Shown: positions 1 through 46,237 of the stretch, one piece after another
Numbering within the stretch: position 1 is the first letter of the stretch
How the letters are laid out: the number at the start of each line of letters is the position of its first letter
Assembly (NCBI GenBank): GCA_964443495.1
Contig: CAYUCS010000002.1
Coordinates: forward strand, 23,740 to 87,739
Source of the DNA: an uncultured Gammaproteobacteria bacterium
Lineage (GTDB): Bacteria > Patescibacteriota > Patescibacteriia > Patescibacteriales > GWE2-39-37
Direction: 5' to 3'
Length of the DNA: 64,000 nucleotides
The notes under the pieces: model-generated
What the model was told of the DNA's origin: nothing
The model's database searches: none
The model's input: only the letters and a program-made list of their open reading frames with translations
Translations under genes and position numbers: made by a program

Positions 1-86
1 ACAATGATCGGTAATTGCTTGACCAAGACGGTGGACGCGACTTGCCTGACGTTGTCGTACAACTCCTGTTCGTACCATTCGTTCAT
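1..86 (-). CDS. hypothetical protein, N-terminal fragment (gene runs off the left edge)
   Basis: ATG at 86..84 follows a purine-rich GAAAGGAAAAAAGAC stretch. It reads MNEWYEQELYDNVRQVASTVLVKQLPII with no stop before the window edge. It is shorter than the ORF-track cut-off. Confidence 0.35.
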   Translation of the reverse strand, partial: MNEWYEQELYDNVRQVASTVLVKQLPII

Positions 87-238: not shown

Positions 239-2722
239 CTACTCAAGGTAGAGATCGTGTGTATAGATATATTCCGCGATTTGCGGCGAAACCAGGTCGT
301 TGATCGCAAATCCATCCCTGATACTCTCACGGATGGCCGTACTTGAACCGAAGACGCCTTCGAGCTCGATCAGCATGTGGTGCGGCGGCAGATCCGCTTC
401 AGCGGCGCCATAGCCCTTGCGGGTCAGGACCGCCCAATTCAGATTGCCCCAGATCCATGGTCCGTGATTCCAAACCTGATGGATTTCCGACTTACCCTCG
501 GCGCCGCCAGCGATGATGTCCTCGCCGATGACATACCAGATTTCAGCATCCGGGTAACGCTGTTTGTAGCGGACGTCCAGAAGATAAGTCGGGGTGTAGG
601 TATCGGCATCCAGGTCATGGAGGTCCAGCTTGATGTTGCCTGCTTCAGGAAACGCGGCGACAGCCATACGACGGCGATGATCTATCGGAGTGCCGTTCAC
701 TGAAGGCTTGTCGGCGCGATTGCCGCAAGGCGCGATTACGACTTCATCGAAAATCTTGCCCAGCTCAGAGGCAATTGCCTGTTGATGAAGGCCCGGAGGA
801 TTGAAGCTTCCGCCGTATATGGCGACTTTCTTCTTAAGCACCCCCCTTCGCAGAAGCAGATCGCGCATCAGATAATACCGCGAAGTGAAATGGGCACTGA
901 CCATGGATTCGCGCAGATCATAGCCGAAATCGCGCTTGGCCATGATCGGCACAGGCATCGCCTGCACCCGCTTGCGGTATGCATCGTGATACATCCGCCA
1001 CTTGTCTTCCAAGTCAATCACAAAAGATTCCGGCGTCGGGAAAAGGCGCGAGAGATGGCCAGCCGGAAGCTTGAACTCCTGCTCCAGCATACCGCTCAGG
1101 TACCGCTCTAGGAACCATTCCGGATTCCTACGGAATTCAGTGAAGGCCCGTACCATCTCGTCGTGGTAGCCCCGGCGCTTGAGATTGCCGTAATCGAAAG
1201 GATCTTTCTGGTCTTTTTCGATTTCAGCAGTCGGCTGAACTTCATATACCTCTCGCGGGACGATTTGCCTGCAATAGGCTTCACGCTCCATGTAGTCGAG
1301 CAGCTGATAAACCTCTCTGGCGACGGAGCCTCCAGGGGCCGCATAATAGCCTGCAATGTCGGCATACTGCGTGCCATAACCGAAGGCGATTTCCACCTTG
1401 TTGCAATTGGCACTGAATAAGCCGCCGATCTTTTCGGTCTTGCCAGCCAGCACCTCCATCCTCGCCCTGGCCTGGATGTTGCCATAGGCCCGAGCGTCAT
1501 CCGGAGTGATGCCGGCCGACTCAGCGATCGCGTCGACGATCGGCTTGATCGGTACTACCTCGTAGTTCGTAAAGTAGTGCTCCCCAAGAAGGTTCCTGGC
1601 GATCTCGTCGGCTATTTCCATGTTCCTTGTCCCGCTATAGCCTTCCATCGGCAGATTGTAAAGGAAGACGTTCTCTGGACCGAGAATCAGGACGTACAGC
1701 AAAGCTGACAGCGCCGAGTCTTTGCCTCCGGAAAGTCCGATAATCATCTTGCGACGCGACGCTGGCATGGTCCAGAGGAACCGCTTGGTTACGTCGAACA
1801 ACGCATTGAACATCTGGGTAGTATCGTCTTCCTCTACGACCTCGATAGGTTGCATACCTGGCCCGACGACGAATTCCTTGGACCCGGAAAAGAAAGGCGG
1901 GATGACGAAGACCACGTTTCCGTCACGATCATAAACCGTCGAGCTACCGTCGTAAGCGATCAGATTCTTCCCGTTGTTCTGGACGCCAGTGTTATTGACG
2001 TAAACGAAAATGACTTTGCACTCGGCCAAAAGGGCCTTTACGACCGAATGGCGCTTGCGGTTTTTCTGCCAGCTCCAATTCGAGCATGACAGATTGAAGA
2101 TGATTTCGGCGCCGAGACGAGCCAGGATCTTGGTCGGGCTGTAAAAATAATCGCCATCCCACATGTCCTCGCAGCATATTGCGCCGAACTTGATCGTCTT
2201 TCCTGTGCGGGTCATGATCGAATAGACATCGAACATCTCCTCCATCGGGATGAACTGCTGCCTCCGCTCCATTTCCTCCTCTCGCCTTATGCGCTTATTG
2301 CGCATGTGGCGCCCGTCGTCGAAGATGCGGTAGTTCGGCTGTAGTGTCTTGTCGGTCTGGCCGATCCACTCCCCGTGCTGCGCGATGGCGGCAACGTTGC
2401 TCTTGAGCATCCGCCCGTCTTCGCCGGAGCGGCCAGGACAAGCCGTGAGCGTCCCGAAGATTACAGCTACATGCTTGTCGCGCGTGGCGAAACGGATGCG
2501 CTCATTGCACGTCATCACATCCATTACGAAAGCATCGTCCTCGTACATGTCGCCGATTACATAGCCGGACAGGCACTCTTCGGGGAAGATGATAAAATCA
2601 GCTTCCGACGCTTCAGCTTGCGCTATCTCTTTCACCATATACGCAAGGTTGATGTCCGGCCGTCCAGGGACAACATCCATCTGGCACAACCACAACTTGA
2701 TTTCTTCGATTTCCTTGATCAT
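239..2722 (-). CDS. nadE: three-domain fusion: carbon-nitrogen hydrolase (glutaminase) + NAD+ synthetase (NadE) + C-terminal NadD-like nicotinate/nicotinamide mononucleotide adenylyltransferase
   Basis: The N-terminal CN-hydrolase domain has FPE and GAICCEDMW (E-K-C triad context). The PP-loop GLSGGKDSALSA marks NAD synthetase. The C-terminal ~190 aa carry GGSFNPPGLHQQ and SSTAIRESI (ISSTxxR-like), as in NadD/NMNAT. I moved the start to the ATG at 2722 because AAGGAGG lies 5 nt upstream; the track ORF starts at 2770. Confidence 0.85.
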   Translation of the reverse strand: MIKEIEEIKLWLCQMDVVPGRPDINLAYMVKEIAQAEASEADFIIFPEECLSGYVIGDMYEDDAFVMDVMTCNERIRFATRDKHVAVIFGTLTACPGRSGEDGRMLKSNVAAIAQHGEWIGQTDKTLQPNYRIFDDGRHMRNKRIRREEEMERRQQFIPMEEMFDVYSIMTRTGKTIKFGAICCEDMWDGDYFYSPTKILARLGAEIIFNLSCSNWSWQKNRKRHSVVKALLAECKVIFVYVNNTGVQNNGKNLIAYDGSSTVYDRDGNVVFVIPPFFSGSKEFVVGPGMQPIEVVEEDDTTQMFNALFDVTKRFLWTMPASRRKMIIGLSGGKDSALSALLYVLILGPENVFLYNLPMEGYSGTRNMEIADEIARNLLGEHYFTNYEVVPIKPIVDAIAESAGITPDDARAYGNIQARARMEVLAGKTEKIGGLFSANCNKVEIAFGYGTQYADIAGYYAAPGGSVAREVYQLLDYMEREAYCRQIVPREVYEVQPTAEIEKDQKDPFDYGNLKRRGYHDEMVRAFTEFRRNPEWFLERYLSGMLEQEFKLPAGHLSRLFPTPESFVIDLEDKWRMYHDAYRKRVQAMPVPIMAKRDFGYDLRESMVSAHFTSRYYLMRDLLLRRGVLKKKVAIYGGSFNPPGLHQQAIASELGKIFDEVVIAPCGNRADKPSVNGTPIDHRRRMAVAAFPEAGNIKLDLHDLDADTYTPTYLLDVRYKQRYPDAEIWYVIGEDIIAGGAEGKSEIHQVWNHGPWIWGNLNWAVLTRKGYGAAEADLPPHHMLIELEGVFGSSTAIRESIRDGFAINDLVSPQIAEYIYTHDLYLE

Positions 2723-2866
2723 CGCACTCCTCCTTTTTCTCCCTTGGGTTAGGTTGCGTAATATATCCATTGTTTCAATGAACGGATTCGCCTAAGCCGC
2801 CGACGGCGGTCAGCAGCTTGGGTGAAGCGGGCAGGAACGGATTCCTGCCCTTGTTACGAATATCGA

Positions 2867-3793
2867 TTAAAGAGCTTCGAGGGTTTCGTCGAACAAGACG
2901 TCGATCGGGCGATTCTGCAGCATCTGCAGTTTCCTGAGCGCATCCTTGAAGATAGTGCCGTGATGCCCGATGCCGAACTCCGGAAATGGGTCTTCTGCCA
3001 GATTGACGATCGCCAGCTTTTCGGCGTCATCGCCGGCCCTGAACCAGCGCATAAGCATTCCTTTGCTGACCGCGAAGTCCACCTTGATCGGCAGCAGATA
3101 AGCCGTCGTCCAGTTGATGCGCTTGGCTTGGAGGTGCGGCCGCTCTTCTTCGGCCGAAGTTTCGTAAGTCCGCAGCAGTATCAGCTCCGTGTCAACTTCG
3201 GCGATTTCCGGTTGGTTCAAGATGACCATGACCGGCGTTCGAGGAACGAATGGGTAGTGGTAAAACTCCGTTTCCGTAGCCGCGTACGGCTCAATCTTGA
3301 GACTGACCTCCTCCTCGGCCTCCATCTGCAGCGTCGCCGCCGGCGTCTGGAAATAGTAGTTGACCACCTCTTCGTTGCCGCCTACCAGGGCGATTTTGCC
3401 TTTGCCCGGGTCCCATTTGCGATCGATCAGGACGAAGAAGCTGTTGCCGGTGCTGTCGATGACCACCGGAATGATATCGGCGGCCAGCGACGGCTTGGGG
3501 CGCTGCAGCCGGCCGATGAAGTCCAGCTTGATAATACTTGCTTCGCTGTGACGCTCGATGCTGATGGCGACCAGGTCGCCCTCGGAACCGAATCTTCCCC
3601 AGCCTTCGTAGCACTCCTGAACGAATGACAGCAGCACTGTTTCCAGGTCGTCATCCTTGAAGCAAAACTTTGTGCGATCCATGAAGAGGTCATCGGTGTC
3701 GAGTACGAGCTGAGGCTTCAGCTCGTTGACTCGCGCCAATTGCACATCGGTGACCTTGCCGCCGTTCCTGCCGAAAAACAATCTTCTGTTCAT
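2867..3793 (-). CDS. hypothetical protein with a degenerate Nudix-like fold/box
   Basis: The segment IPVVIDSTGNSFFVLIDRKWDPGKGKIALVGG...LQMEAEEEVSLKI resembles a Nudix beta-strand plus box. It keeps the E-x2-EE glutamates, but R->M and G->S, and the upstream E/G are not aligned. An AAAAGGAG SD precedes the ATG. Confidence 0.45.
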   Translation of the reverse strand: MNRRLFFGRNGGKVTDVQLARVNELKPQLVLDTDDLFMDRTKFCFKDDDLETVLLSFVQECYEGWGRFGSEGDLVAISIERHSEASIIKLDFIGRLQRPKPSLAADIIPVVIDSTGNSFFVLIDRKWDPGKGKIALVGGNEEVVNYYFQTPAATLQMEAEEEVSLKIEPYAATETEFYHYPFVPRTPVMVILNQPEIAEVDTELILLRTYETSAEEERPHLQAKRINWTTAYLLPIKVDFAVSKGMLMRWFRAGDDAEKLAIVNLAEDPFPEFGIGHHGTIFKDALRKLQMLQNRPIDVLFDETLEAL

Positions 3794-3818
3794 GTCGTCT
3801 CCTTTTAGTCGAAGCTGC

Positions 3819-4802
3819 CTAATCGTTGTTGAGTATCTTCCTGATCGTCCTGACGAACTCGCCGGAAACGTCGCAGACCTTGAAACGGGCCGACAAGCCG
3901 TTGCTCGACAGTTCGCAATCCTTCGCCTGTTGGGACATCGGATGTGTATTGGTCGTGACCACTTTGATGATGGGCGAACTTATCAGATCGACGATAATGC
4001 TGCCGCTATTGAGCGCGAAATGGCTCAACACCGCATAGACTGAGGCCGCGCCATGTTCCAGGTACGCCTCAGCTGCCTTGATTATGGTCCCGGCGCTCCT
4101 GGTCATGTCATCGTAAATGATGACGTTCTTGCCGCGAACGTCGCCGATAACTGCCAGAACTTCAGTCTTCTCGAACTCCCTGCCTTTGTCGATCAGGGCA
4201 AAACCCGTTTGGAAGAGCTTGGCGAACGTCGCCACCCATGCCGGCCGCCCAAGGTCCGCCGAGGCGAACATGAAATTGTCGAGCCCCAACTCGCTTATGG
4301 CCGTTGCCAGCTGTTTTTCGGCGTAAAGCTCGTAACGCAGGCAGTCGCCCTCGAAATAATGCACCAACCCGGAAACGTGAAGATCCATCATCAGGAAGAC
4401 ATTGCCCATCCCAGAATTAGGGATGCTTGAAAGCTGGCGGGCAACGACCTTGGCCATTACCACTTCGCCAGGATACTGGGCCCGCTCCATGGTTGAATAC
4501 CCCAGGAACGGGATAACGAAGATCCGACGGATGGTGCCGTAGCCTGCCAAGGCGCATCCGACGCGGTAAAGCTCGTTGATCTGCTCGTCCGTATGGGTGC
4601 TGCCCACGAAAATCGCTGTCTTGCCGATAAGGTCGTCGCGCCCGCCTATACCGATGCGGTAATACTGCTCGACGCCTCCGAAATTCTTCCTTTCGATACT
4701 GCCAGCTTCGAGGCCAAGGCCTTTTGCGATCAGTTCGGCGAAATATTGCGACTCTTTCGTCGAGAAAATAACGACATCCTTAAGCGTTGCGATGGTATCC
4801 AT
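3819..4802 (-). CDS. prs: ribose-phosphate pyrophosphokinase family protein (divergent Prs paralogue)
   Basis: It has the PRPP-binding loop VIIYDDMTRSAGT, an MDLH motif and overall Prs length (327 aa). The region equivalent to the canonical YARQDRK reads YSTMERA, and the flexible catalytic loop is divergent. Confidence 0.8.
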   Translation of the reverse strand: MDTIATLKDVVIFSTKESQYFAELIAKGLGLEAGSIERKNFGGVEQYYRIGIGGRDDLIGKTAIFVGSTHTDEQINELYRVGCALAGYGTIRRIFVIPFLGYSTMERAQYPGEVVMAKVVARQLSSIPNSGMGNVFLMMDLHVSGLVHYFEGDCLRYELYAEKQLATAISELGLDNFMFASADLGRPAWVATFAKLFQTGFALIDKGREFEKTEVLAVIGDVRGKNVIIYDDMTRSAGTIIKAAEAYLEHGAASVYAVLSHFALNSGSIIVDLISSPIIKVVTTNTHPMSQQAKDCELSSNGLSARFKVCDVSGEFVRTIRKILNND

Positions 4803-4832
4803 TATGCTCTCCTTCCGGTCGGTTATACTGCT

Positions 4833-5654
4833 TTAGCGCATCAACCCTTTCTTCTTGTGAAGTGCCGTGAAAAAATCACGGCGGTTCAGTACCGCGAACA
4901 GGACGCGCGTCTTGTGCTCGCGCACGATCACGCTTTCCCCGACTCCGATCTCGCCGACGCTTTGGCCGTCAGCGATCAGGCACATTCCGCCGGAAGTCTT
5001 GGTTCCGACGATTTCCACCTCGATCAACGAATCCTGTTTCATAACTACCGGCTTGGCGCCGAACTGGTCGGGGCAAAGCGGCGTAAGCAGGATGCATTCG
5101 AGTCCGGGCACGACGACCGGTCCGCCGGCGCTCATGTTGTAGCCCGTCGAACCTGTCGGCGCGCTGACGATCATGCCGTCAGCGCGAAGCCCGCGATAGA
5201 CGACATGGTTGTCGATCCGCACCCTGAAAGTCCCCATCGAGCTGGTATGCTTGAGTACGACGTCGTTGACGAACGGTCCATAGCTCTCCCCTCGGAAGAC
5301 GACTTCAAGGCCGACTCTTTCTTCGCGGACATATTTGCCCTTGATGATCAGCTCAAGCACCTTCTTCCAGTTGGCCAAATTGCCGATCGTGATGAAGCCG
5401 ACATCGCCGCCGACGTTGATCGGGATAGTGATTACGCCACAGACCGAAAAATCGGTCGATGTGCGTACTGCCATCCCGTCGCCGCCGAGAGCGACTGCGA
5501 ATTCCGCCATGTGGGCGGAACTTTCGTCCGCGATGACCAGCTGGCCTTTTTCTTCGAGCCAGCTAGTTATGCGCGCCTTCGTTTCCTGGGCGATCTTCTT
5601 GTCCGGATGCGCGACGATCACGAATCCTGACCTTTTGCTTCTTAAGCTTGTCAT
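4833..5654 (-). CDS. nadK: NAD kinase
   Basis: It has the ALGGDGM (GGDG) and PTGSTGYNMSAGGP motifs. I moved the start to the ATG at 5654, which is preceded by AAAGGAG; the track ORF starts at 5717. Confidence 0.85.
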   Translation of the reverse strand: MTSLRSKRSGFVIVAHPDKKIAQETKARITSWLEEKGQLVIADESSAHMAEFAVALGGDGMAVRTSTDFSVCGVITIPINVGGDVGFITIGNLANWKKVLELIIKGKYVREERVGLEVVFRGESYGPFVNDVVLKHTSSMGTFRVRIDNHVVYRGLRADGMIVSAPTGSTGYNMSAGGPVVVPGLECILLTPLCPDQFGAKPVVMKQDSLIEVEIVGTKTSGGMCLIADGQSVGEIGVGESVIVREHKTRVLFAVLNRRDFFTALHKKKGLMR

Positions 5655-5782
5655 GGCCCTTCTCCTTTCTGTAATCGATATTCTTATTTCAAAGATCGTC
5701 CTCCTTGCTGCAGTCATCTATCAGCCGATAAATGGCTCCAGTAAGGAGGCAGAGGGACGGGAGTGTCCCTCTGCCGGTGCCG

Positions 5783-7120
5783 TCACACGACGACGGCTCG
5801 TTCTTCAGTTCCTTCAACTCCGAAAATCCGTTTGAACAGCTCGACCCGTTCACGTGGCCCTGTCGCCTTGGCATGGTTATCAGACAGCTTGACCGCGCCG
5901 ACTCCATTGGCTTCGACAACCTTGCAGGCCATCGAGAATGGGCGGAACAGGTCTGAGCCCTCGGTTCTTGGCCAAGCACCGCGGCAGTCGTTGCCGGCCA
6001 GGGTACCCCAGCCGAACGACAAGGTGCCGACCTTTGATCCGTTACGACGAACGCAATCGACCATGTCCTGGGCGTCGAGGCCGTCGCTCGGCAATATCAG
6101 CTTGGTCTGCGGGTCAGCCTCCATCTTATTCCACCATCCGACCATCAATTCTGTCACCTGGTCAGGATGCATCGAGTCCGGCCTTGTTCCCTTGCACTGA
6201 TGGGCCATCCATTTGGGCGCGCCATCAAGAAACTGCTTGGTGCCGAACGTGTCGATCAGCATGATGCTCATGTCGCGCCCGAAGACATCGAACCATTCCT
6301 TGACGATCTCATACTGGGCTGACTTAATCTTGCCGACGTCGTCGCCAGCCAGGCAGGCTTTGACCATGGGCAATTCGTGGGCGTTGGTGCCGATCGGATT
6401 ACTGCTGCCATGCTTCATGGATAGCAGCACGCTTGAGCTGCCGACGCATTGTCCTGGCAGTTCGTCCATCATGACGTTCATGACGAACTGCTGCATGTAG
6501 CGGCTGTGCCGTCTCCTGGTGTCGAAGAGGGCGAAGTTCAGGCTCGGTTCCGTCTTGATCAGCTTGATCTTCTCGTGGAGACGGTTGATCATCTTCGAGT
6601 AGATCGTCATGATCTCGAACTCCGAAAGGCCGGCGTTCAGGATCATGTAGTAGTAATACAGTTCGGAAACGATGGCCATCGCCATGATTTCCCACCAGGT
6701 CACTTTCCACCACGGTCCGGTAAAAGTCAGCTCGTAACCGCCGTCGACCCTCTTGAGTTCGTAGCCGGGCAGACGCATCTTCCTGAGCTCGGCCAGGAAA
6801 TTTCCTGGAATGATGGCAGTCTTGTCATCGCTCAAGGTCATGCCGCCGACGAACGAGCACTCGGCCGGATTGATCGATAACCTCAGGCACTCGTCAAGCT
6901 GCTCGCGCAAGACGCTCTCCGGGATGACATCGGCCAGCCGGATGAACTTGTCTCGGATGATCAGCTTGAACGTGACGATAACGTCGCGATAAGCCAGGTT
7001 CTTCCAGATGAAGTAAGCCATCGGGAATTTGTAGAAGTCCGTATCGAGGAAGCTCTTGATGATCGCTTCCCCGTTGGCCAGGGCGAATATCTGCTTCAGT
7101 CCCATCAGTATCCTTCTCAT
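5783..7120 (-). CDS. pncB: nicotinate/nicotinamide phosphoribosyltransferase family protein (NAPRT/PncB-like)
   Basis: The N-terminal LDTDFYKFPMAYF motif (TD-x-YK) is typical of the NAPRT/NAMPT superfamily. The protein is 445 aa and AAGGAGG precedes the ATG. Substrate (nicotinate, nicotinamide or other) cannot be decided by eye. Confidence 0.75.
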   Translation of the reverse strand: MRRILMGLKQIFALANGEAIIKSFLDTDFYKFPMAYFIWKNLAYRDVIVTFKLIIRDKFIRLADVIPESVLREQLDECLRLSINPAECSFVGGMTLSDDKTAIIPGNFLAELRKMRLPGYELKRVDGGYELTFTGPWWKVTWWEIMAMAIVSELYYYYMILNAGLSEFEIMTIYSKMINRLHEKIKLIKTEPSLNFALFDTRRRHSRYMQQFVMNVMMDELPGQCVGSSSVLLSMKHGSSNPIGTNAHELPMVKACLAGDDVGKIKSAQYEIVKEWFDVFGRDMSIMLIDTFGTKQFLDGAPKWMAHQCKGTRPDSMHPDQVTELMVGWWNKMEADPQTKLILPSDGLDAQDMVDCVRRNGSKVGTLSFGWGTLAGNDCRGAWPRTEGSDLFRPFSMACKVVEANGVGAVKLSDNHAKATGPRERVELFKRIFGVEGTEERAVVV

Positions 7121-7133
7121 TGCCTTTCCTCCT

Positions 7134-8189
7134 TCAGTGAATGAATTTTTTGCAGAATCTGTCAGCTACGTCGAGAATCTTGTCTTTTTCCACCAGTCCA
7201 TCGATCAGTGGTTGCGGAAAGACGGCGGTGCCATTCTTGGCTCCAAGCAGAGCTCCGACGATCGAGGCATTGGTGTCCGTGTCGCCGCCGACGCGGATGG
7301 CGTTGACGACGGCCTGGAAGCTGTCGTGGTCCTTGAGGAAGCAGGCGTAAGCTAGGGGCAAAGAATTGTAGACATAGAAAGGCTTGTCGCCGTAATACTC
7401 TGCTAGGAACGCCAAATCCTTTTTGTAGTGCTTGCCGCACATCAGGTCAGCCATCCTTTCCGAAAGACTGGGCTCGCTTTCAATATCGAAATTGAGCGAT
7501 TCTCTTCTGGCACCAAGCTGCAAGCAGATCATTATTGCGCGTTTGAAGAATGCGGCAGTAAAATCTATGCTGTCCAGCGAATCAAAACAGAGCGACGCCA
7601 CGCCGAACTGCATTACTCCTTGTTCAATGCCCAAGCGCGTACGGTGTGTCATCTGCGCAAGATCGAATAATCCGTCAATGATCTGATTGGCCAAAGTGAG
7701 CGTTTTTACGTGCGGATTTGGTCCAAGACCATTATTGAACGGCAGTTTCCTTAAGGCGAACATCGCGGCCAAAGGCGAAATCTTCATCATCACGCCATTA
7801 CCACTGGTGGGCATTCCAGACTCACTCCAGGACACTCCCGACTTGATGCGTTCGATCGCTGTAAGCGTACCCTTGCCCCAACCCGATGCGCGGTCGTCCA
7901 TGGCCTCGACGTGGCGCCGTGCCATGTCGTCCATATCGATGCGGCCGCAGGCGATCAGCGATTCGGCTATTACCAATGAAAGCTGGGTGTCGTCGGTTAT
8001 GTCGCCGGCCTTGAGCTTGCCGTCGTGGAACTTGTGTCCCGGCGGTGGGTCCTGATAAACCGCGAAGGCCTCGTCCGGCATCGCTAGAAGCTCAGCCGGC
8101 GTAAAAATCTTCTCGAACGGCATCCCCAGAGCGTCGCCGATGGCGATGCCCAGGAACATTCCCTTGACTCTGTCTTTCAAATCGGTCAT
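7134..8189 (-). CDS. ADP-ribosylglycohydrolase family protein (DraG/ARH-like)
   Basis: GIAIGDALGMPFE lies near the N-terminus and GGDTDTNASIVGALLGA near the C-terminus, matching the metal-binding motifs of this family. The start ATG overlaps the upstream stop (ATGA). Confidence 0.8.
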   Translation of the reverse strand: MTDLKDRVKGMFLGIAIGDALGMPFEKIFTPAELLAMPDEAFAVYQDPPPGHKFHDGKLKAGDITDDTQLSLVIAESLIACGRIDMDDMARRHVEAMDDRASGWGKGTLTAIERIKSGVSWSESGMPTSGNGVMMKISPLAAMFALRKLPFNNGLGPNPHVKTLTLANQIIDGLFDLAQMTHRTRLGIEQGVMQFGVASLCFDSLDSIDFTAAFFKRAIMICLQLGARRESLNFDIESEPSLSERMADLMCGKHYKKDLAFLAEYYGDKPFYVYNSLPLAYACFLKDHDSFQAVVNAIRVGGDTDTNASIVGALLGAKNGTAVFPQPLIDGLVEKDKILDVADRFCKKFIH

Positions 8190-8473
8190 GGCCCCTCTCC
8201 TTCTGCAGTGGTTTCGATTTCTTCAAGCCTTAGCGCTTCATGGTCATTATCGGGCCAGATCAGGCGGTAGCCGTAAGGCCGCCACCACTGCTCGCCCATG
8301 GTTTTCATGTGCTTGATCCACTTTGAATGCCTTTCGTGGGCGTAATCGAACAGCAAGCCAGGATTCCAGACGAACGGAAATGGCAAAGGATTCTCTTTTG
8401 CCCACCTGGGGTACTCTTCGCGGCAATACCTCTCCCATTCGGCTGCTAGCCTTTTCAACTCACTCTCATCCAT
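8186..8473 (-). CDS. small Trp-rich hypothetical protein (95 aa), translationally coupled to the ADP-ribosylglycohydrolase
   Basis: The ORF has a GGGAGG SD and an ATGA overlap with the downstream gene. I see no recognisable motif. Confidence 0.5.
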   Translation of the reverse strand: MDESELKRLAAEWERYCREEYPRWAKENPLPFPFVWNPGLLFDYAHERHSKWIKHMKTMGEQWWRPYGYRLIWPDNDHEALRLEEIETTAEGEGP

Positions 8474-8607
8474 GATGCCTCCCTTTCGACGCTTTTCGTC
8501 TGTTGAAGTATGTTGATGTAAAGATCGTTTGCCTCAACCACGATGGTTCAGGCAAGAAAGCTGCGATCGATTCATTCCAGTCGCAATTTTCTGAAAATTG
8601 GGGTGAC

Positions 8608-8632
8608 GGGCGCTTGCTTGGTGCAAGCGCCC
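8608..8632 (-). terminator. strong hairpin 19 nt downstream of the pncA stop (possible internal terminator or processing site in the NAD cluster)
   Basis: GGGCGCTTGC-TTGGT-GCAAGCGCCC is a perfect 10-bp stem. On the minus strand the U-run begins only ~10 nt later, so strength is uncertain. Confidence 0.4.
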
Positions 8633-8650
8633 GCCGATGCGATAATCCGA

Positions 8651-9376
8651 CTACAGGATATCCGTAGACCTGATGACCTTGACTCCGCCTTCAGCAAAAG
8701 ACTTCCTGATGGCCTCCTGGCTGCCGTTGACATTGACTGGACGAGTCGTATCTTCGATGACGTAGGCTTCGAAGCCGAACTTGACGGCATCGAGTGCGCT
8801 CCAGCCGACACAGAAATCCTCGGCCAATCCGGTGAAGAAGCAGCGCTTGACACCTCTATCGTGCAGGACGGTGGCAAGCTCGGTAGCTTCACCGCCATTA
8901 TCGCGGAACGCACTATAGCTATCGGCTATGACGCTCTTGCCCTTATTGATGATGCAGACAAAGTCAGTCATCTCCAAATCCGGGTGCAGCCTGGCAGTCG
9001 GACTGTCAGCTAGGCCATGTTCAGGCCAGAGGCGCTGTTCGCCGACTACTGAAAGATACTGCAGCAGTTCATAGACATTGAACCCGGCCTTGCAGCTCAG
9101 ATATGAAGCGTTAGTCGCAATCCAGCTTTTGACATCAGCCTCTGTTACGACCGGGGTGTCAACGAAGACGTAAGAACTGTCAAACGACACGTGTCCCGCG
9201 GGGTGCCAGTCCAAACTGGCATAACTACGCATCCTGCCAAAAACTTCTATCAGCCTCTTGATTACTGGCACGATCAGGTGCCCGTTCTTGACTGCCAGCT
9301 CTCCGCACGGCATGAACGTCGGCTGGACATCGATCGCCAGCAAAGCGTCGCCGGCCACTATCTCTATCTTTTTCAT
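8651..9376 (-). CDS. pncA: nicotinamidase / pyrazinamidase (isochorismatase family)
   Basis: ALLAIDVQPTF (catalytic Asp region) and CFFTGLAEDFCVGWSALDA (catalytic Cys region) are present. A GAGGAGG SD precedes the start. Confidence 0.8.
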   Translation of the reverse strand: MKKIEIVAGDALLAIDVQPTFMPCGELAVKNGHLIVPVIKRLIEVFGRMRSYASLDWHPAGHVSFDSSYVFVDTPVVTEADVKSWIATNASYLSCKAGFNVYELLQYLSVVGEQRLWPEHGLADSPTARLHPDLEMTDFVCIINKGKSVIADSYSAFRDNGGEATELATVLHDRGVKRCFFTGLAEDFCVGWSALDAVKFGFEAYVIEDTTRPVNVNGSQEAIRKSFAEGGVKVIRSTDIL

Positions 9377-9400
9377 GTCATTTCCTCCTCTTGCAAGATA

Positions 9401-10492
9401 TTACAGGCAATAGCCTGCTTTTCTGACCATCTCGAGCTGCTGGAACGCCAGCCCCTGCGCTTTGACGAAATCCTCCGGATAAAAATCGACTTGCAGCAGT
9501 TCTCTCGACTCCTTGATGAGCGGCCGCAGTTCGCGCGGATGGACATCCAGGCGGAAGAGGAACGGCTGCGACGAGCCGCCTTGGTCGCCTGCCTTGCCCT
9601 TATCCGGGGTCGAGAAGATGCCGAGCGATTTCATCTCGCACAAGATATTCAGACCCTTGAGTATGGCGTGGGCCGGCTCCAGACTGCGGTTAAGCAGCTT
9701 GAATTCCAAGCCGGTCTCCCCGCTTAATTCTCTGAGCGTCGCATCAATCGGGCTTTCGAAACGCCAGATGCCTCCGCCTGGAATCGCCAAGCGGCTCGGA
9801 AAATTCCTTTTGTCCGGGCTGCGATAGCCGCACAGCAGCCAATTGGTGCCGCGATACCCTGTCGTTACGATCGCATCGACCGCTTGGCGACCAGGCACGA
9901 AACGCATTCCTTGATTGGCCAGTGCTTGCCTGATGCCGACGAAGCCGCCGACGTTGCCCATGAGCGCGACCGTACCCGGCGCGGCGATTTCCAAAAACAT
10001 CTTGTAATCGCCCCTGAGCACGGCGTTGCGCAGGTCAGTCGCACGGTAGCCATAGCGATACTCCTTGGGCAAATCGGTTTCGCAGTTGACCAGCTTCAGC
10101 CAGCTCGGAAGCATGCAGTGCTCTTTGAGGGGGCCGATGATGTCTTCCACGTTGCCGGTGCTGACCTGGTTGGCGCCATAGCGCTTGCAAAGCGTCAAAA
10201 TCTTGCCCCACCAGACCTGCCACAGGTTGTAATCCTGCAAGTGGACGATCTTGATGCGGCGCATATCGACGCCGGCCTGCATCAGGCTGTAAAGCAACAT
10301 CTTCTCGCGGTAAACCGCCAGTAACGGATGCCTCGGGGTACCGACTTCGTAGCAACTGCCGAGCACGATAACCACCCGGTCGTATTGGGCCAAAAGACCC
10401 AGAATTGCCAGGATGTGCCCCTTGTGTGGCGGGCTGAACCTACCGATAAATAAGATGGTTTCCAGTAAGCCCTGCTTCTTTCGTCTGACCAT
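9401..10492 (-). CDS. nadM: bifunctional NadM-type NMN adenylyltransferase / Nudix (ADP-ribose pyrophosphatase-like)
   Basis: The N-terminal GRFSPPHKGH matches the GRFQPxHxGH nucleotidyltransferase motif. The C-terminal Nudix box reads GGGIWRFESPIDATLRELSGETGL. I moved the start to the ATG at 10492, preceded by AAAGGAGG; the track uses a TTG at 10519. Confidence 0.8.
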   Translation of the reverse strand: MVRRKKQGLLETILFIGRFSPPHKGHILAILGLLAQYDRVVIVLGSCYEVGTPRHPLLAVYREKMLLYSLMQAGVDMRRIKIVHLQDYNLWQVWWGKILTLCKRYGANQVSTGNVEDIIGPLKEHCMLPSWLKLVNCETDLPKEYRYGYRATDLRNAVLRGDYKMFLEIAAPGTVALMGNVGGFVGIRQALANQGMRFVPGRQAVDAIVTTGYRGTNWLLCGYRSPDKRNFPSRLAIPGGGIWRFESPIDATLRELSGETGLEFKLLNRSLEPAHAILKGLNILCEMKSLGIFSTPDKGKAGDQGGSSQPFLFRLDVHPRELRPLIKESRELLQVDFYPEDFVKAQGLAFQQLEMVRKAGYCL

Positions 10493-10703
10493 GCTGGCCT
10501 CCTTTCGAATTTTAGCCAAAGTTAGGTAATTTTATAATCGAATTATTCACGATAAAAAGAACGCCTTTTTTATGCAAAAAGATTTCAAACCATAGCATTT
10601 TTAACCGTTTATGTCAATCATCGAATCAGCACCACCAATCTTCTATTTCTTGACTAATTTTTAATAAATTTACCCAATCCAGAATGCTTGTTTGCCCCTG
10701 ATT

Positions 10704-10722
10704 TATTGTAATTACTACACTA
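10704..10722. promoter_or_regulatory. candidate NrtR operator upstream of the nadM-pncA operon
   Basis: TATTGTAATTACTACACTA contains a GT-N7-AC core. By hand count it matches the palindrome at 11440-11458 at 13 of 19 positions. On the minus strand it overlaps a TACAAT -10-like hexamer. Confidence 0.4.
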
Positions 10723-10755
10723 ACTCTCATTAAAAAAATACGCCTCCCTTGCCTG

Positions 10756-11430
10756 CTACAAAATAGCTATATTTTTCAATTTCTTCTCGATGAATGCATA
10801 CAGTTCGGCCGGGCGATTCTTCTTGCCCAAGTCCAGCTTGCCGGTTTTCCTAAGCATGCCCAAAGACAAAACCTTCTTGCGGAAATTACGCTTGTCGAGA
10901 TGGCGGCCGAGTATTACTTCATAAGCGCCCTGGAGCTCGCTCAAGGTGAACGAATCAGGCAACAGGCTATAAACGATGTTGGTATATTCAAGCTTCCCTC
11001 TCAGGCGCTCGATGGCGGACTTGACCATGTCCTTGTGGTCATAGGCCAGCTTAGGCAACTCGCTCACGCCGAACCAACGGATCTGCCCATGCTCGGCCGA
11101 AGTCGCCAGCTTGAGGCCGTCGCCCGAAATCAAGGCGAAGTAAGCCACGGATACGACTCTGCCGAAAGGATCGCGCCCGACCTCGCCGAAAGTGTACAGC
11201 TGTTCGAGATAGACATCTTTCAAACCCGTCTTCTCGAACAAGACGCGCTCGGCGGCCTGGTCGACCGACTCCTTGCCCTGGATCAAACCACCCGGAGCAG
11301 CCCAGCAGTCGACGAACGGAGCCTTGTTCATCTTGATCAGAAGCACCTTCAATTCGTTCTCCTCGACGGTAAAGATGATGATGTCGGTAGCGATGACTGC
11401 GTGCTTGTAAATCTGGACCGGTTTTGCCAT
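10756..11430 (-). CDS. nrtR: NrtR-family regulator (Nudix-related transcriptional regulator of NAD metabolism)
   Basis: The N-terminal Nudix domain has a degenerate box (GGLIQGKESVDQAAERVLFEKTGL, with REUXEE reading RVLFEK). The C-terminal segment FTLSELQGAYEVILGRHLDKRNFRKKVLSLGML is typical of the NrtR winged helix. It sits directly upstream of NAD salvage genes. Confidence 0.75.
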   Translation of the reverse strand: MAKPVQIYKHAVIATDIIIFTVEENELKVLLIKMNKAPFVDCWAAPGGLIQGKESVDQAAERVLFEKTGLKDVYLEQLYTFGEVGRDPFGRVVSVAYFALISGDGLKLATSAEHGQIRWFGVSELPKLAYDHKDMVKSAIERLRGKLEYTNIVYSLLPDSFTLSELQGAYEVILGRHLDKRNFRKKVLSLGMLRKTGKLDLGKKNRPAELYAFIEKKLKNIAIL

Positions 11431-11439
11431 ATACTTGCT

Positions 11440-11458
11440 TAGTGTTTATATAACACTA
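11440..11458. promoter_or_regulatory. perfect palindrome, candidate NrtR autoregulatory operator
   Basis: TAGTGTT-TATAT-AACACTA is a 7-bp perfect inverted repeat containing GT-N7-AC. It abuts and overlaps the -10 hexamer of the nrtR promoter. Confidence 0.55.
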
Positions 11459-11486
11459 ATATACACCTCTGCCAGCCGGGTGTCAA
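11458..11486 (-). promoter_or_regulatory. sigma70-like promoter of nrtR
   Basis: On the minus strand it reads TTGACA (11486..11481), a 17-nt spacer, then TATATT (11463..11458). Confidence 0.6.
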
Positions 11487-44281: not shown

Positions 44282-44282
44282 A

Positions 44283-45374
44283 TTATTCTGATAATACGTA
44301 GTTCTTATAAGAATTCCTATGGATATTTAACAAATTTGATATGCCTGATTTTGAATACCCATTACTTTCTAGCATTTTACACAATTTGCTTAATAGGTTA
44401 ATATTTTCCTTTTTCAGGTCTTTTGGCCGAGCCATGTAGTCCTCCATAAACACAACTTCTATAAAATTTGCCAGGTCAAGCTTTTGAATATGTTCAAACA
44501 TCATATTCATTTTCACTTTCTTGAAAAAGACATCAATATCATCAATCGTGTTTATTTGCAAAAAATCAAAAATCTTTACCAAAAAAGTAATATCTTTCTT
44601 AGATAAAGAATTATTAACCCCTAAAAGCTTATACTCCAAAAACGATTGCTTTTCTTGTGTATTTAACGCACCAACATAGACTTTGTAGGAGAACCTTCTA
44701 AGTATGGCTGGATCAATTGTATCAATAAGATTTGTAGCAACGATTATTATCCTTCCATTTGCTTGAAAATCGAGAGTTTGAATAAGCGAATTCACGATTC
44801 TTTTTAATTCTCCCACGTCATTACCTTCTTCTCTGGATTTTGCCAATGCATCAAATTCGTCAATAAAAATAATACTATCTGATGTTGACTCAAATAAATC
44901 AGATATATTTCTCATTGTTTCACCAAGCTTCGAAGAAATTACATCTGTGATTTTTACATAATTGATTGGCTTACCAAGCCTACTGGAAATATAGAACCCT
45001 AGTGTAGTTTTTCCACTACCTGGTGGTCCATACAATAAAATTTTATTTAACAGTTCAGTTTCGCTATCGCCTTGTTTTTGCTGATGCTGATAATACGCTA
45101 TAAATTTATCTACCCTAACTTTCACTGAATCCATCATCCATTCAAAATTATTCAGAACATCGTCAGCTTTTGAGCGTGAAATACGAGCGCCGCTTTGGGC
45201 ATAATTAGATTTTGATCTATCAATCAACTCGAGAAGTTTTTTATACGTTGAATGCCTATTATTATTTATCTCATTAGCCGCTAAATCCTCAACCAGCTCA
45301 ATAAGCATTTTTTTATCACCTCTGAGTCCATGTTCAATAATCTTATACAATAGTTGTTGGTTTAAATTTGGCAT
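44283..45374 (-). CDS. classical-clade AAA+ ATPase (IetA-like)
   Basis: It has Walker A LLYGPPGSGKTT, Walker B IIFIDEFDAL, sensor-1 VATN and the Arg-finger region DPAILRRF. It has a single AAA module with a ~100-aa N-terminal and ~90-aa C-terminal extension. Confidence 0.8.
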   Translation of the reverse strand: MPNLNQQLLYKIIEHGLRGDKKMLIELVEDLAANEINNNRHSTYKKLLELIDRSKSNYAQSGARISRSKADDVLNNFEWMMDSVKVRVDKFIAYYQHQQKQGDSETELLNKILLYGPPGSGKTTLGFYISSRLGKPINYVKITDVISSKLGETMRNISDLFESTSDSIIFIDEFDALAKSREEGNDVGELKRIVNSLIQTLDFQANGRIIIVATNLIDTIDPAILRRFSYKVYVGALNTQEKQSFLEYKLLGVNNSLSKKDITFLVKIFDFLQINTIDDIDVFFKKVKMNMMFEHIQKLDLANFIEVVFMEDYMARPKDLKKENINLLSKLCKMLESNGYSKSGISNLLNIHRNSYKNYVLSE

Positions 45375-46164: not shown

Positions 46165-46237
46165 GGCACGGGGTGAAGGAATCGAACCCTCGCCATAGGT
46201 TTTGGAGACCCACGTACTACCATTATACTAACCCCGC
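46164..46237 (-). tRNA. tRNA-Trp (anticodon CCA), CCA end encoded
   Basis: I folded the cloverleaf by hand. The acceptor is GCGGGGU/ACCCCGU, the anticodon stem-loop is UGGGU-CUCCAAA-ACCUA, the T-arm is GAGGG-UUCGAUU-CCUUC, and the 3' end is GCCA. Confidence 0.9.

What the first reader, a model, noticed from the sequence alone, without database searches (positions are those of the whole stretch)
239..11486. Ten-gene NAD salvage / ADP-ribose recycling cluster headed by an NrtR-like regulator
In minus-strand order the genes are: nrtR, nadM-Nudix, pncA, a 95-aa unknown, an ADP-ribosylglycohydrolase, a NAPRT-family enzyme, nadK, a divergent prs, a degenerate Nudix-like protein, and a glutaminase-NadE-NMNAT fusion. 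Established knowledge of NrtR regulons links the ADP-ribose-sensing repressor with nadM-Nudix, a dedicated prs and a nicotinamide or nicotinate phosphoribosyltransferase. Together these convert ADP-ribose and nicotinamide back to NAD. This cluster packs that logic with three further functions in about 11 kb: NAD kinase, de-ADP-ribosylation, and amidation plus a second adenylyltransferase. That gives essentially every step from Nam/Na, ADPR and protein-ADPR to NAD and NADP. For a reduced genome this suggests heavy reliance on scavenging. It may also suggest a capacity to restore NAD after NADase attack. A hairpin at 8608-8632 may split the cluster into two transcription units.
Basis: partly seen in the sequence, partly recalled or inferred. 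Interest (0 to 1): 0.6.

Follow-up and report, generated by a model that had tools for sequence, protein, structure and literature searches.

The report
NrtR-headed NAD salvage gene cluster
A small-genome (CPR, Falkowbacteria-like) bacterium keeps nearly all enzymes for rebuilding NAD and NADP from nicotinamide and ADP-ribose in one regulated gene row. It is a known kind of regulon in an unusually complete form, with a few uncharacterised parts.

Summary
They are an NrtR-family regulator, NadM-Nudix, PncA, a 95-aa orphan, an ADP-ribosylglycohydrolase, a PncB-type NAPRT, NadK, a divergent Prs, a divergent Nudix protein and a glutaminase-NadE-NadD-like fusion.

I found two NrtR-type operators (21-bp palindromes with a GT-N7-AC core). 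One abuts the -10 of the nrtR promoter. Both are conserved in five related loci.

The cluster is chromosomal and syntenic in Falkowbacteria-like CPR genomes. It is not phage NARP1: the NAPRT is PncB-like and the Prs is nearer to cellular PRPS than to Adps.

- The "degenerate Nudix" keeps its catalytic glutamates. It belongs to a small uncharacterised family that sat next to the Prs gene in all eight loci with context.
- The Prs belongs to a widespread PRPS branch that is often linked to NAD genes.
- The NadD-like domain has a non-canonical motif, and here it carries His to Gln at a family-conserved His.
- ADP-ribose sensing by this NrtR is inferred, not shown.
- The hairpin is one of four post-gene hairpins. 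It heads a conserved, covarying three-hairpin RNA element with no Rfam match.
- An eleventh gene (udk-like) runs off the window.

Verdict: a new variant of a known kind.

The parts
11458..11486 (-). Promoter-like site upstream of nrtR (TTGACA, 17 nt spacer, TATATT)
   Evidence: 11 of 12 consensus matches. It is preceded by a GC hairpin plus T-run after the ddl stop codon (sequence).
11439..11459 (.). NrtR box 1: 21-bp palindrome TTAGTGTTATATAAACACTAA with a GT-N7-AC core, abutting the -10 hexamer
   Evidence: unique in the 64 kb window, 0 expected by chance. It is identical in L001, L010 and L011 and variant-but-palindromic in L008. The core matches the NrtR consensus described in PMC2330246.
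10756..11430 (-). nrtR: NrtR-family Nudix-wHTH transcription factor, 224 aa
   Evidence: PF21906 4.7e-24 and PF00293 5.4e-15. NF050029 3e-49, below the equivalog cut-off. BtAraR 169 bits, SoNrtR 119 bits. The Nudix box is degenerate (R-V..E-K).
10703..10723 (.). NrtR box 2: TTAGTGTAGTAATTACAATAA, 13 of 14 flank matches, GT-N7-AC core
   Evidence: It is conserved at the same place, just after the nrtR stop codon, in L001, L010, L011 and L008. It lies about 90 bp upstream of the -35 of the nadM promoter-like site.
10589..10617 (-). Promoter-like site upstream of nadM (TTGACA, 17 nt spacer, TATGGT, with TG extension)
   Evidence: 10 of 12 matches. The sequence is conserved in L001.
9401..10492 (-). 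nadM-Nudix: NMN/NaMN adenylyltransferase fused to an ADPR-pyrophosphatase-type Nudix domain, 363 aa from the ATG with an SD
   Evidence: Francisella NadM-Nudix 2qjt, 6.7e-11. The GRFSPPHKGH motif is intact. The Nudix box is GGIWRFESPIDATLRELSGETGL, so the first Glu of the 'EE' pair is Gly here and Gln in L001. Start refined.
8651..9376 (-). pncA: nicotinamidase, 241 aa
   Evidence: PF00857. NF008623 1e-39, below cut-off. Motifs DVQPTF, DWHPAGHVSF and DFCV are present.
8526..8635 (-). Conserved three-hairpin RNA element. P2 and P3 (8526-8593) have conserved sequence.
   Evidence: 94.8% of cells paired against at most 45.5% in slid controls, and 16 of 36 pairs change on both sides; covariance model hits of 75-84 bits in training loci and an independent 52-bit hit in L008. 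No Rfam match at E<=10. G-U pairs and strand-specific model scores fix the gene-sense strand.
8186..8473 (-). orf95: 95-aa Trp-rich ORFan. It has a strong SD, and its stop codon overlaps the ARH start by 4 nt.
   Evidence: No family in Pfam, NCBIfam, PHROGs or PADLOC. Only itself among 5.8 billion proteins. Absent from all related loci.
7134..8189 (-). ADP-ribosylglycohydrolase (ARH/DraG family), 351 aa
   Evidence: PF03747 7.9e-47. MJ1187, Tri1, DraG and ARH3. Metal-site motifs GDALG, TDDT and GGDTDT are present.
5783..7120 (-). pncB: nicotinate phosphoribosyltransferase, 445-aa type
   Evidence: A. tumefaciens NAPRT 1ybe, 308 bits. NF003704 306 bits, below the 379 cut-off. FDTRRR motif present. 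No similarity to a phage Namat-type protein.
4833..5654 (-). nadK: NAD kinase, 273 aa from the ATG with an SD
   Evidence: NF002561 5.6e-41. GGDG, NDVV and TGSTGY motifs present. Start refined.
3819..4802 (-). prs-like: member of a divergent branch of the PRPP synthase family with the 'FLGYSTMERA / DDMTRSAGT' motifs, 327 aa
   Evidence: K206/R208 of the catalytic loop, the DD pair, DLH and the C-terminal helix are kept, but the canonical RQD(R/K) is STMERA. There are 202 relatives among GTDB species representatives, often next to NAPRT, NrtR or PncA.
2867..3793 (-). orf308: uncharacterised Nudix-fold protein with N- and C-terminal extensions
   Evidence: AF2 pLDDT 94.7; nearest folds are the NrtR Nudix domain with ADPR (3gz8), NUDT9 and TRPM2 NUDT9-H, and NadM-Nudix; 26 of 90 relatives hit PF00293. 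E158 and E162 are invariant. Family size is 134 representatives at 50% identity. It lies next to prs in all eight loci with context (window, L001, L003, L004, L005, L008, L010, L011).
239..2722 (-). Three-domain fusion: nitrilase-type glutaminase, NAD synthetase (NadE) and a NadD-like adenylyltransferase, 827 aa from the ATG with an SD
   Evidence: FPE, CEDMW and SGGKDS are intact and SSTAIR is kept. The adenylyltransferase motif is GGSFNPPGLHQQ against the family's ..G-x-H-H... The Gln codon CAA is at 782-784. The architecture occurs in more than 100 protein clusters. NadE and NadD are separate adjacent genes in L008.
1..86 (-). First 28 codons of an eleventh gene, a uridine-kinase-like P-loop kinase that runs off the window
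   Evidence: the translation is identical to L002:3869-4495. PF00485; udk NF004018 98 bits, below cut-off. It is conserved after the fusion in L001, L002, L004, L005, L010 and L011.

Best explanation
This is a chromosomal, housekeeping NAD(P) salvage and recycling supercluster of a CPR (Falkowbacteria-like) bacterium. At least its upstream end is controlled by an NrtR-family repressor.

The proposed flow, inferred from family membership and not assayed, is:
1. PncA deamidates nicotinamide to nicotinate.
2. PncB joins nicotinate to PRPP to give NaMN.
3. NaMN is adenylylated to NaAD, either by the NadD-like domain of the fusion or by NadM if that domain is impaired.
4. The NadE domain amidates NaAD to NAD, using ammonia from its glutaminase domain.
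5. NadK makes NADP.

The PRPP comes from ADP-ribose. The glycohydrolase frees ADP-ribose from modified targets. A Nudix enzyme (the NadM C-terminal domain and/or the 308-aa protein) splits it to AMP and ribose-5-phosphate. The adjacent Prs-like enzyme pyrophosphorylates ribose-5-phosphate to PRPP. NadM also re-adenylylates NMN.

NrtR binds two palindromic boxes. One overlaps its own promoter's start region and the other lies just after nrtR. NrtR is released by a ribose-containing NAD breakdown product, most likely ADP-ribose.

GC-rich hairpins after pncA, pncB, orf308 and the fusion divide the long transcript region into segments.
For: - **Family assignments:**
- **Catalytic motifs intact:** PncA, PncB, NadK, ARH, NadM-AT, glutaminase, NadE and the orf308 Nudix helix.
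- **NrtR boxes:** both have the family's GT-N7-AC core. Box 1 touches the -10 hexamer. Both boxes are conserved in L001, L010, L011 and in the more distant L008. The motif definition and the known nrtR/prs/nadM/pncA/pncB/nadE/nadD regulons are in PMC2330246.
- **Operon-like layout:** same strand, gaps of -4 to 30 bp inside blocks, and an SD before every gene but nrtR.
- **Synteny:** seven other contigs share the order and are flanked by ddl and by pyruvate kinase and adenylosuccinate synthase genes.
- **orf308:** the fold is nearest to ADPR-binding Nudix domains, and the gene is always adjacent to prs.
- **prs:** the gene belongs to a PRPS branch that sits within 9 kb of NAPRT in 34 of 80 loci and of NrtR in 22 of 80.
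Against: - No activity was measured.
- Several models score below their curated equivalog cut-offs (NrtR, PncA, PncB, Prs).
- The NadM Nudix box lacks one Glu.
- The NadD-like domain has a non-canonical motif and a His to Gln change at a family-conserved His.
- The NrtR lacks the equivalents of SoNrtR R41 and R98, and it scores higher against the arabinose sensor AraR.
- No NrtR box was found before the ARH, nadK or fusion blocks, so NrtR control of genes 4-10 depends on read-through past the hairpins.
- The Prs-like protein lacks the canonical RQD motif. The TIGR01251 score does not separate PRPS from phage Adps, so its acceptor substrate is not fixed by sequence.
Confidence: 0.75

Rival explanations
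1. Only nrtR-nadM-pncA is an NrtR-controlled unit. The hairpin after pncA terminates transcription. The downstream blocks (orf95-ARH-pncB, nadK-prs-orf308, the fusion, udk) are then separately expressed and controlled by something else, possibly the conserved P2-P3 RNA leader.
For: - Both NrtR boxes lie at the nrtR end and none lies further down.
- P1 is a textbook terminator (stem plus UCUUUUU) in L008 and is followed by a U-run in L005.
- The P2-P3 element is conserved ahead of whichever gene follows it: ARH, NAPRT or the LSDAT genes.
- Four post-gene hairpins segment the cluster.
Against: - No sigma-70-like promoter was found on the minus strand downstream of P1.
- In the window and its closest relatives, 7-8 nt separate the stem from the short U-run, which makes a poor intrinsic terminator.
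- P2-P3 covary as RNA, so they are transcribed. That needs read-through or a promoter that was not detected.
Confidence: 0.35
2. The cluster is a conflict or repair system rather than housekeeping metabolism. In this reading an orphan ADP-ribosylglycohydrolase under a Nudix-HTH regulator removes foreign (phage or toxin) ADP-ribosylation, and the NAD genes refill the pool after NADase attack. It would be analogous to the ARG-centred systems proposed in PMC9503650 and to the phage NARP pathways.
For: - An ARH gene has no ART or sirtuin partner in the cluster and sits under an NrtR-like regulator, which is the pattern described in PMC9503650.
- The middle of the cluster is mosaic. Two non-orthologous NAPRT types, two NadK types, two PncA types and extra LSDAT/SLOG genes appear between close relatives.
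- The window does carry a defence island elsewhere (IetAS).
Against: - No PADLOC hit for ARH, orf308 or orf95.
- The flanking synteny with ddl, an aminoacyl-tRNA synthetase, pyruvate kinase and purA is stable.
- GC content is like the rest of the genome.
- There are no phosphatases, chaperones or nucleases of the ARG-centred systems.
- All other members are ordinary NAD enzymes.
Confidence: 0.1
3. A NARP1-like shortcut operates. The Prs-like enzyme would pyrophosphorylate ADP-ribose itself to ADPR-PP. Either the PncB-like enzyme would then condense ADPR-PP with nicotinate to give NaAD directly (NadE finishing to NAD), or orf308 would cleave ADPR-PP to PRPP plus AMP.
For: - The Prs-like protein is about as far from canonical PRPS as a phage Adps is: 140 against 135 bits on TIGR01251.
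- It has lost the canonical RQD motif.
- It is always adjacent to an ADPR-type Nudix protein.
- A Nudix enzyme (NudC) converts ADPR-PP to PRPP in vitro (bioRxiv 10.1101/2024.02.11.579819).
- That paper notes that some bacteria may use NARP1 for housekeeping.
Against: - The Prs-like protein is nearer to cellular PRPS (E 1e-25, full length) than to Adps-type phage proteins (23% identity, E 2e-8 pairwise and E 0.1-2 against the database).
- It keeps the C-terminal helix module that Adps homologues lack (PMC13586617; alignment).
- Its PP loop is SAGT, like PRPS T-x-G-T, and not the Adps G-G-x-T / A-A-S type.
- The partner is PncB-type with no similarity to Namat, whereas 97% of Adps genes have a Namat neighbour.
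Confidence: 0.06

Closest known systems
NrtR regulons of NAD metabolism (Rodionov et al. 2008, PMC2330246). [quoted passage not shown]
   Same: A Nudix-wHTH regulator heads the cluster. The operators are 21-bp palindromes with a GT-N7-AC core at the regulator's own promoter. The target genes come from the same set: nadM, pncA, pncB, prs, nadE, nadD and draG-like.
   Different: All of these, plus nadK, an extra Nudix family and an ORFan, sit in one row of about 11 kb. None of the regulons listed in that paper combines more than about five of them. The host is a CPR bacterium. The ADPR-phosphate-contacting arginines of SoNrtR are not conserved.
Phage NAD reconstitution pathway 1, Adps plus Namat (Osterman et al., bioRxiv 10.1101/2024.02.11.579819; PMC13586617; PMC12774641)
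   Same: A PRPS-fold enzyme is paired with a NAPRT-superfamily enzyme, and the overall aim is to rebuild NAD from ADP-ribose and nicotinamide.
   Different: The Prs-like protein is not in the Adps group by similarity, C-terminal module or PP loop. The transferase is PncB-type, not NadV/Namat-type. The route is deamidated (PncA, NadE). The locus is cellular and syntenic.
Bifunctional NadM-Nudix (Francisella and Synechocystis; PDB 2qjt, 2qjo)
   Same: The two-domain architecture and an intact adenylyltransferase motif.
   Different: Only 45 bits to 2qjt. The Nudix box has Gly or Gln in place of the first Glu of the 'EE' pair.
Glutamine-dependent NAD synthetase (NadE with a nitrilase-type domain; PMC3376133)
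   Same: The first two domains and their catalytic motifs.
   Different: It carries a third, NadD-like domain with G-x-H-H instead of H-x-G-H. This three-domain form is common in CPR and Acidobacteriota sequences, but I found no description of it in the searched literature.
ARG-centred systems with Nudix-HTH regulators proposed to counter viral ADP-ribosylation (PMC9503650)
   Same: A glycohydrolase without a cognate transferase, under an NrtR-like factor.
   Different: There are no coupled phosphatases, chaperones or nucleases. The glycohydrolase is embedded in NAD biosynthesis genes.

Membership tests
NrtR family of transcription factors | N-terminal Nudix-like domain plus a C-terminal winged-helix DNA-binding domain | tested here: met
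   PF00293 5.4e-15 and PF21906 4.7e-24. Full-length alignment to SoNrtR 3gz5 and BtAraR 5bs6.
NrtR family of transcription factors | Degenerate, non-catalytic Nudix signature | tested here: met
   The box reads GLIQGKESVDQAAERVLFEKTGL. The Glu of 'RE' is Val and the second Glu of 'EE' is Lys.
NrtR family of transcription factors | Palindromic operator of about 21 bp with a GT-N7-AC core near regulated promoters (PMC2330246) | tested here: met
   Two sites, at 11439-11459 and 10703-10723. Box 1 abuts the -10 hexamer. Both are conserved in five loci.
NrtR family of transcription factors | ADP-ribose as the effector that releases DNA binding | tested here: inconclusive
   The ribose-contacting Arg and His (BtAraR R86 and H131 equivalents) are kept. 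The SoNrtR R41 and R98 equivalents are Met and Phe (residue roles from PMC4666351). A binding assay cannot be run here.
Class I-type PRPP synthase (Prs) | Two PRT-type domains, a DD plus 5-phosphate loop, a catalytic Lys/Arg flexible loop and a DLH motif | tested here: met
   Pribosyltran_N and Pribosyl_synth. DDMTRSAGT, DKGR and DLH present. TIGR01251 140 bits against a cut-off of 113.
Class I-type PRPP synthase (Prs) | Canonical regulatory-flexible-loop motif (Y-A-R-Q-D-R/K) and scores at the level of the curated equivalog models | tested here: not met
   The motif is YSTMERA. All equivalog models are far below their cut-offs, for example NF002320 at 138 against 297.
Phage Adps (ADPR pyrophosphokinase, NARP1) | Loss of the C-terminal alpha11-alpha12 module, a remodelled PP loop and a Namat gene next door | tested here: not met
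   The C-terminal segment is present. The PP loop is SAGT, not GG-x-T or AAS. The neighbour is PncB-type.
Nicotinate phosphoribosyltransferase (PncB) | NAPRTase N-terminal and catalytic domains with close similarity to characterised or solved PncB proteins | tested here: met
   PF17767 and PF04095. 1ybe at 308 bits over 19-445. It is below the NCBIfam cut-offs (306 against 379, and 201 against 270), so the subfamily placement is by best match.
Nudix hydrolases (for orf308) | Nudix fold and the Glu residues of the REUXEE helix | tested here: met
   AF2 pLDDT 94.7. Foldseek probability 1.0 to many Nudix structures. The helix reads MEAEEEVSL, with E158 and E162 invariant in 90 sequences. The Arg of 'RE' and the G-x5-E spacing are not canonical.
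Nudix hydrolases (for orf308) | ADP-ribose as substrate | not testable with these tools
   This rests only on inference. The nearest folds are ADPR-binding Nudix domains (3gz8, NUDT9/TRPM2, 2qjt), and the gene is adjacent to prs.
NadD (NaMN adenylyltransferase), for the C-terminal domain of the fusion | (H/T)-x-G-H motif and ISST-x-x-R motif | tested here: inconclusive
   SSTAIR is present. The first motif is P-G-L-H-Q here and G-x-H-H in relatives. The last His, conserved in all but a few relatives, is Gln in this genome.
Known NAD-related riboswitches and other Rfam families (for the three-hairpin element) | A covariance-model match | tested here: not met
   No relevant hit even at E<=10.

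The most novel reading that the evidence does not exclude
The 110-nt three-hairpin element after pncA could be a new cis-regulatory RNA that gates expression of the ADP-ribose-recycling half of the cluster. It could be a riboswitch or a protein-binding leader that senses a NAD-pathway metabolite. In the same reading, the orf308 Nudix family plus the 'YSTMERA' Prs branch would form a dedicated ADP-ribose-to-PRPP module that has not been described.
Probability: 0.25. Interest if true: 0.65.

Novelty: new variant of a known kind. Interest (0 to 1): 0.42.

Why it matters
CPR bacteria are thought to depend on scavenged cofactors. A single regulated locus that covers nicotinamide and ADP-ribose through to NAD and NADP gives a concrete, testable picture of how one lineage keeps its NAD pool.

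The locus also flags four things worth an assay:
- a Prs branch that travels with NAD genes in several phyla;
- a small Nudix family tied to that Prs branch;
- a widespread three-domain NadE-NadD fusion with an altered active-site motif;
- a covarying RNA element with no known family.

None of these overturns current understanding.

Tried and rejected
- **Phage origin or NARP1.** Rejected. The window holds aminoacyl-tRNA synthetases, ddl and tRNAs. The NAPRT is PncB-like. The Prs is nearer to PRPS than to Adps.
- **TIGR01251 score as a discriminator of PRPS from Adps.** Useless, because a phage Adps-type protein also passes the cut-off.
- **AF2 of orf308 with six sequences.** Failed, with pLDDT 45.7. 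A 90-sequence alignment fixed it.
- **The search for related loci with orf308 alignments in genome contigs.** A3 had no usable pattern. A2 gave no relative.
- **Exact look-up of the Prs protein.** Returned nothing.
- **orf95.** No homologue anywhere, so its reality rests only on the SD and the start/stop overlap.
- **Rfam at permissive thresholds on the two long leaders.** Nothing relevant.
- **Metagenome pattern scan for the RNA element.** 26 loci matched but only one was a true copy.
- **Literature searches.** Nothing on a described NadE-NadD fusion or on CPR NAD clusters.
- **Source organism.** Cluster look-up did not return its name.

Full report
**What is there**

The span 239-11486 holds ten minus-strand ORFs.
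- an NrtR-family factor (NrtR_WHD 4.7e-24 plus NUDIX);
- NadM-Nudix;
- a nicotinamidase-type isochorismatase;
- an ADP-ribosylglycohydrolase (7.9e-47);
- a NAPRT;
- NAD kinase;
- a ribose-phosphate diphosphokinase family member (TIGR01251 140 bits, cut-off 113);
- an 843-codon ORF with CN_hydrolase, NAD_synthase and NadD-like parts.

The 95-aa ORF and the 308-aa ORF have no significant family hit on their own.

Every gene except nrtR has an AGGAGG-like site 6-9 nt before its start. This check moves three starts: nadM to 10492, nadK to 5654 and the fusion to 2722. Inside blocks the gaps are -4 to 30 bp. Longer gaps follow nrtR (263 bp), pncA (177), pncB (128), orf308 (144) and the fusion (152).

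The first 28 codons of an eleventh gene, a uridine-kinase-like P-loop kinase, occupy 86-1 and run off the window.

**Host and conservation**

The rest of the window encodes aminoacyl-tRNA synthetases, ddl, a DEAD-box helicase and three tRNAs. It is therefore a cellular genome.

Close relatives of the 308-aa protein come from Candidatus Falkowbacteria and unnamed metagenome contigs. Seven other contigs show the same order. They run from ddl through nrtR, nadM, pncA, ARH, NAPRT, nadK-like, prs, the orf308 family and NadE(-NadD), then udk-like, a protein-kinase-like gene, pyruvate kinase and adenylosuccinate synthase.

The middle of the cluster is mosaic:
- The window has a 445-aa PncB (77-79% identical in L003-L005). 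Its closest relative L010, together with L001, L011 and L008, has an unrelated 518-aa NAPRT with the NAPRTase_C domain.
- NadK and PncA also come in two types.
- L003 adds two SLOG/LSDAT genes and a paralogue of orf308.

**Regulation**

A strong promoter-like site (TTGACA-17-TATATT) lies upstream of nrtR, after a hairpin plus T-run that ends ddl. Touching its -10 hexamer is a 21-bp palindrome, TTAGTGTTATATAAACACTAA. It is unique in the window, with none expected by chance.

A second site, TTAGTGTAGTAATTACAATAA, follows the nrtR stop codon. Both sites have the GT-N7-AC core that Rodionov et al. give as the shared feature of NrtR operators (PMC2330246). Both are kept at the same positions in L001, L010, L011 and, with spacer changes, in the more distant L008. 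No further box occurs in the cluster.

A second promoter-like site lies about 90 bp downstream of box 2, ahead of nadM.

The regulator aligns over its full length with SoNrtR (119 bits) and better with the arabinose sensor BtAraR (169 bits). The residues that hold the ribose or pentose are kept. The equivalents of SoNrtR R41 and R98, which contact the ADP-ribose phosphates (PMC4666351), are Met and Phe. So NrtR-family membership is shown, but ADP-ribose as the effector is inference from context.

**The enzymes**

- *PncB.* It matches the A. tumefaciens NAPRT structure at 308 bits and shows no similarity to a phage Namat-type protein. The route is therefore the deamidated Preiss-Handler one, which fits PncA and NadE.
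- *PncA, PncB, NadK, ARH, the NadM adenylyltransferase, the glutaminase and the NadE P-loop.* All carry their usual motifs.
- *NadM Nudix box.* It lacks the first Glu of the 'EE' pair. That position is Gly here and Gln in L001.
- *The fusion.* The three-domain form is common. More than 100 clusters at 42-90% identity cover the full length. They come from CPR groups and Acidobacteriota and are annotated only as NAD synthase. In L008 the two parts are adjacent separate genes.
- *The fusion's adenylyltransferase motif.* Family-wide it is GGSFNP-x-(G/A/C/S)-x-H-H rather than P-x-H-x-G-H. In this genome the last His, conserved in all but a few relatives, is Gln (CAA at 782-784). The independent Logan assembly L002 has the same residue. 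NaMN adenylylation may therefore fall partly to NadM. Literature searches found no description of this fusion.

**The Prs-like protein**

It aligns over its full length with human and bacterial PRPS at E about 1e-25. Against Adps-type phage proteins that sit next to NadV-like genes, it aligns only weakly: 23% identity, E 2e-8 pairwise, and E 0.1-2 against the phage database.

It keeps the catalytic-loop Lys/Arg, the DD pair, an S-A-G-T phosphate loop and the C-terminal helix. Adps homologues are reported to lack that helix module (PMC13586617).

It replaces the canonical YARQDRK with YSTMERA. This variant defines a broad branch with 202 relatives among GTDB species representatives, in CPR, Myxococcota, Bacteroidota and Planctomycetota. 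Within 9 kb of these relatives lie NAPRT in 34 of 80 loci, NrtR in 22 of 80, PncA in 13 of 80 and NadV in 4 of 80.

This looks like the 'prs' of published NrtR regulons, but I did not test that equivalence. The TIGR01251 score cannot separate PRPS from Adps, because a phage Adps-type protein scores 135 bits. The acceptor substrate therefore stays an inference.

**orf308**

A six-sequence alignment gave a useless model. A profile search of 1.84 billion representatives found a small family of 134. With 90 sequences, AlphaFold reached pLDDT 94.7.

The core is a Nudix fold. Its nearest solved neighbours are the SoNrtR Nudix domain with ADP-ribose, NUDT9 and the TRPM2 NUDT9-H domain, and Francisella NadM-Nudix. 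In addition, 26 of 90 members hit PF00293.

E158 and E162 are invariant, and the helix reads M-E-A-E-E-E. It is therefore probably an active hydrolase, not a degenerate one. It lies next to the Prs-like gene in all eight loci with context (window, L001, L003, L004, L005, L008, L010, L011), and L003 and L004 carry a second paralogue.

**The hairpin**

It is the first of three hairpins in a conserved element (8526-8635).

P1 varies freely in sequence but always pairs, and it is followed by a C/U-rich run. In L008 it is a textbook terminator. P2 and P3 keep both sequence and pairing.

On seven copies, 94.8% of cells pair, against at most 45.5% when the partners are slid. Sixteen of 36 pairs change on both sides, and no shuffle out of 500 reaches the observed values.

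A covariance model of P2-P3 found an independent copy in L008 at 52 bits, again between pncA and the next gene. L003 has two copies, one before the SLOG genes and one before ARH.

G-U pairs and the much lower reverse-strand scores place the RNA on the gene strand. Rfam gives nothing at E<=10.

Similar stable GC-rich hairpins without a U-tract also follow pncB, orf308 and the fusion (z -4.4 to -6.2). Several of the long intergenic regions are as conserved as the coding DNA, or more so. Whether these hairpins terminate, attenuate or stabilise transcripts cannot be decided from sequence.

**Assessment**

The locus is an unusually complete, NrtR-headed NAD(P) salvage and ADP-ribose recycling cluster in a CPR bacterium. 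It is a new variant of a known regulon type.

It is not NARP1, and nothing found points to a defence role. There is no PADLOC hit for ARH, orf308 or orf95, the housekeeping synteny is stable, and the GC content is typical.

The parts that deserve experiments are the YSTMERA Prs branch, the orf308 Nudix family, the altered NadD-like domain and the P1-P3 RNA element.

Noticed in passing
window 42038-45374 (minus strand), next to tRNA-Trp at 46164-46237: A low-GC island (34-35% against about 53%) encodes an AAA ATPase and a subtilase. They match the IetA (1e-62) and IetS (2e-60) models of the IetAS anti-phage system. This looks like a horizontally acquired defence island beside a tRNA gene.
   Followed up: partly
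window 8526-8635; L001:5226-5355; L010:4137-4266; L038:3013-3141; L003:1656-1775 and 3453-3536; L005:685-801; L008:4310-4421: A conserved three-hairpin RNA element lies downstream of pncA and ahead of ARH, NAPRT or SLOG genes. It shows strong covariation and has no Rfam family, so it is a candidate new cis-regulatory RNA.
   Followed up: partly
window 782-784 (codon 663 of the 843-codon ORF): The NadD-like domain has Gln (CAA) at the position where the relatives examined have the second His of a G-x-H-H motif. The independent assembly L002 has the same residue.
   Followed up: yes
window 8186-8473: The Trp-rich 95-aa ORF is absent from every related locus and from a 5.8-billion-protein database, yet it has a strong SD and a 4-nt stop/start overlap with ARH. 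It appears to be an insertion between the RNA leader and ARH.
   Followed up: partly
window 5783-7120 compared with L001:6467-8023, L010:5387-6936 and L011:5214-6770: Two unrelated NAPRT types occupy the same slot in close relatives. One is 445 aa and resembles PDB 1ybe. The other is 518 aa, has the NAPRTase_C domain and scores 512 bits on TIGR01513. NadK and PncA also switch type between relatives. This is in-place replacement of functionally equivalent genes.
   Followed up: partly
L003:1807-3391: One related cluster carries two SLOG (LSDAT_prok) genes between pncA and ARH, plus a 307-aa gene with no family. These are extra nucleotide-binding modules inside a NAD cluster.
   Followed up: no
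window 1-86 and L002:3869-5479; also L001, L004, L005, L010, L011: A udk-like kinase and a protein-kinase-like gene always follow the fusion. A role for the kinase in nicotinamide riboside or nucleoside salvage is possible but untested.
   Followed up: partly
window ~5749-5776, ~2830-2851, ~190-226: Stable GC-rich hairpins lie directly after the stop codons of pncB, orf308 and the fusion. None has a U-tract. The fusion-udk spacer is 97% identical to L010, more than the coding DNA at 84-86%.
   Followed up: partly
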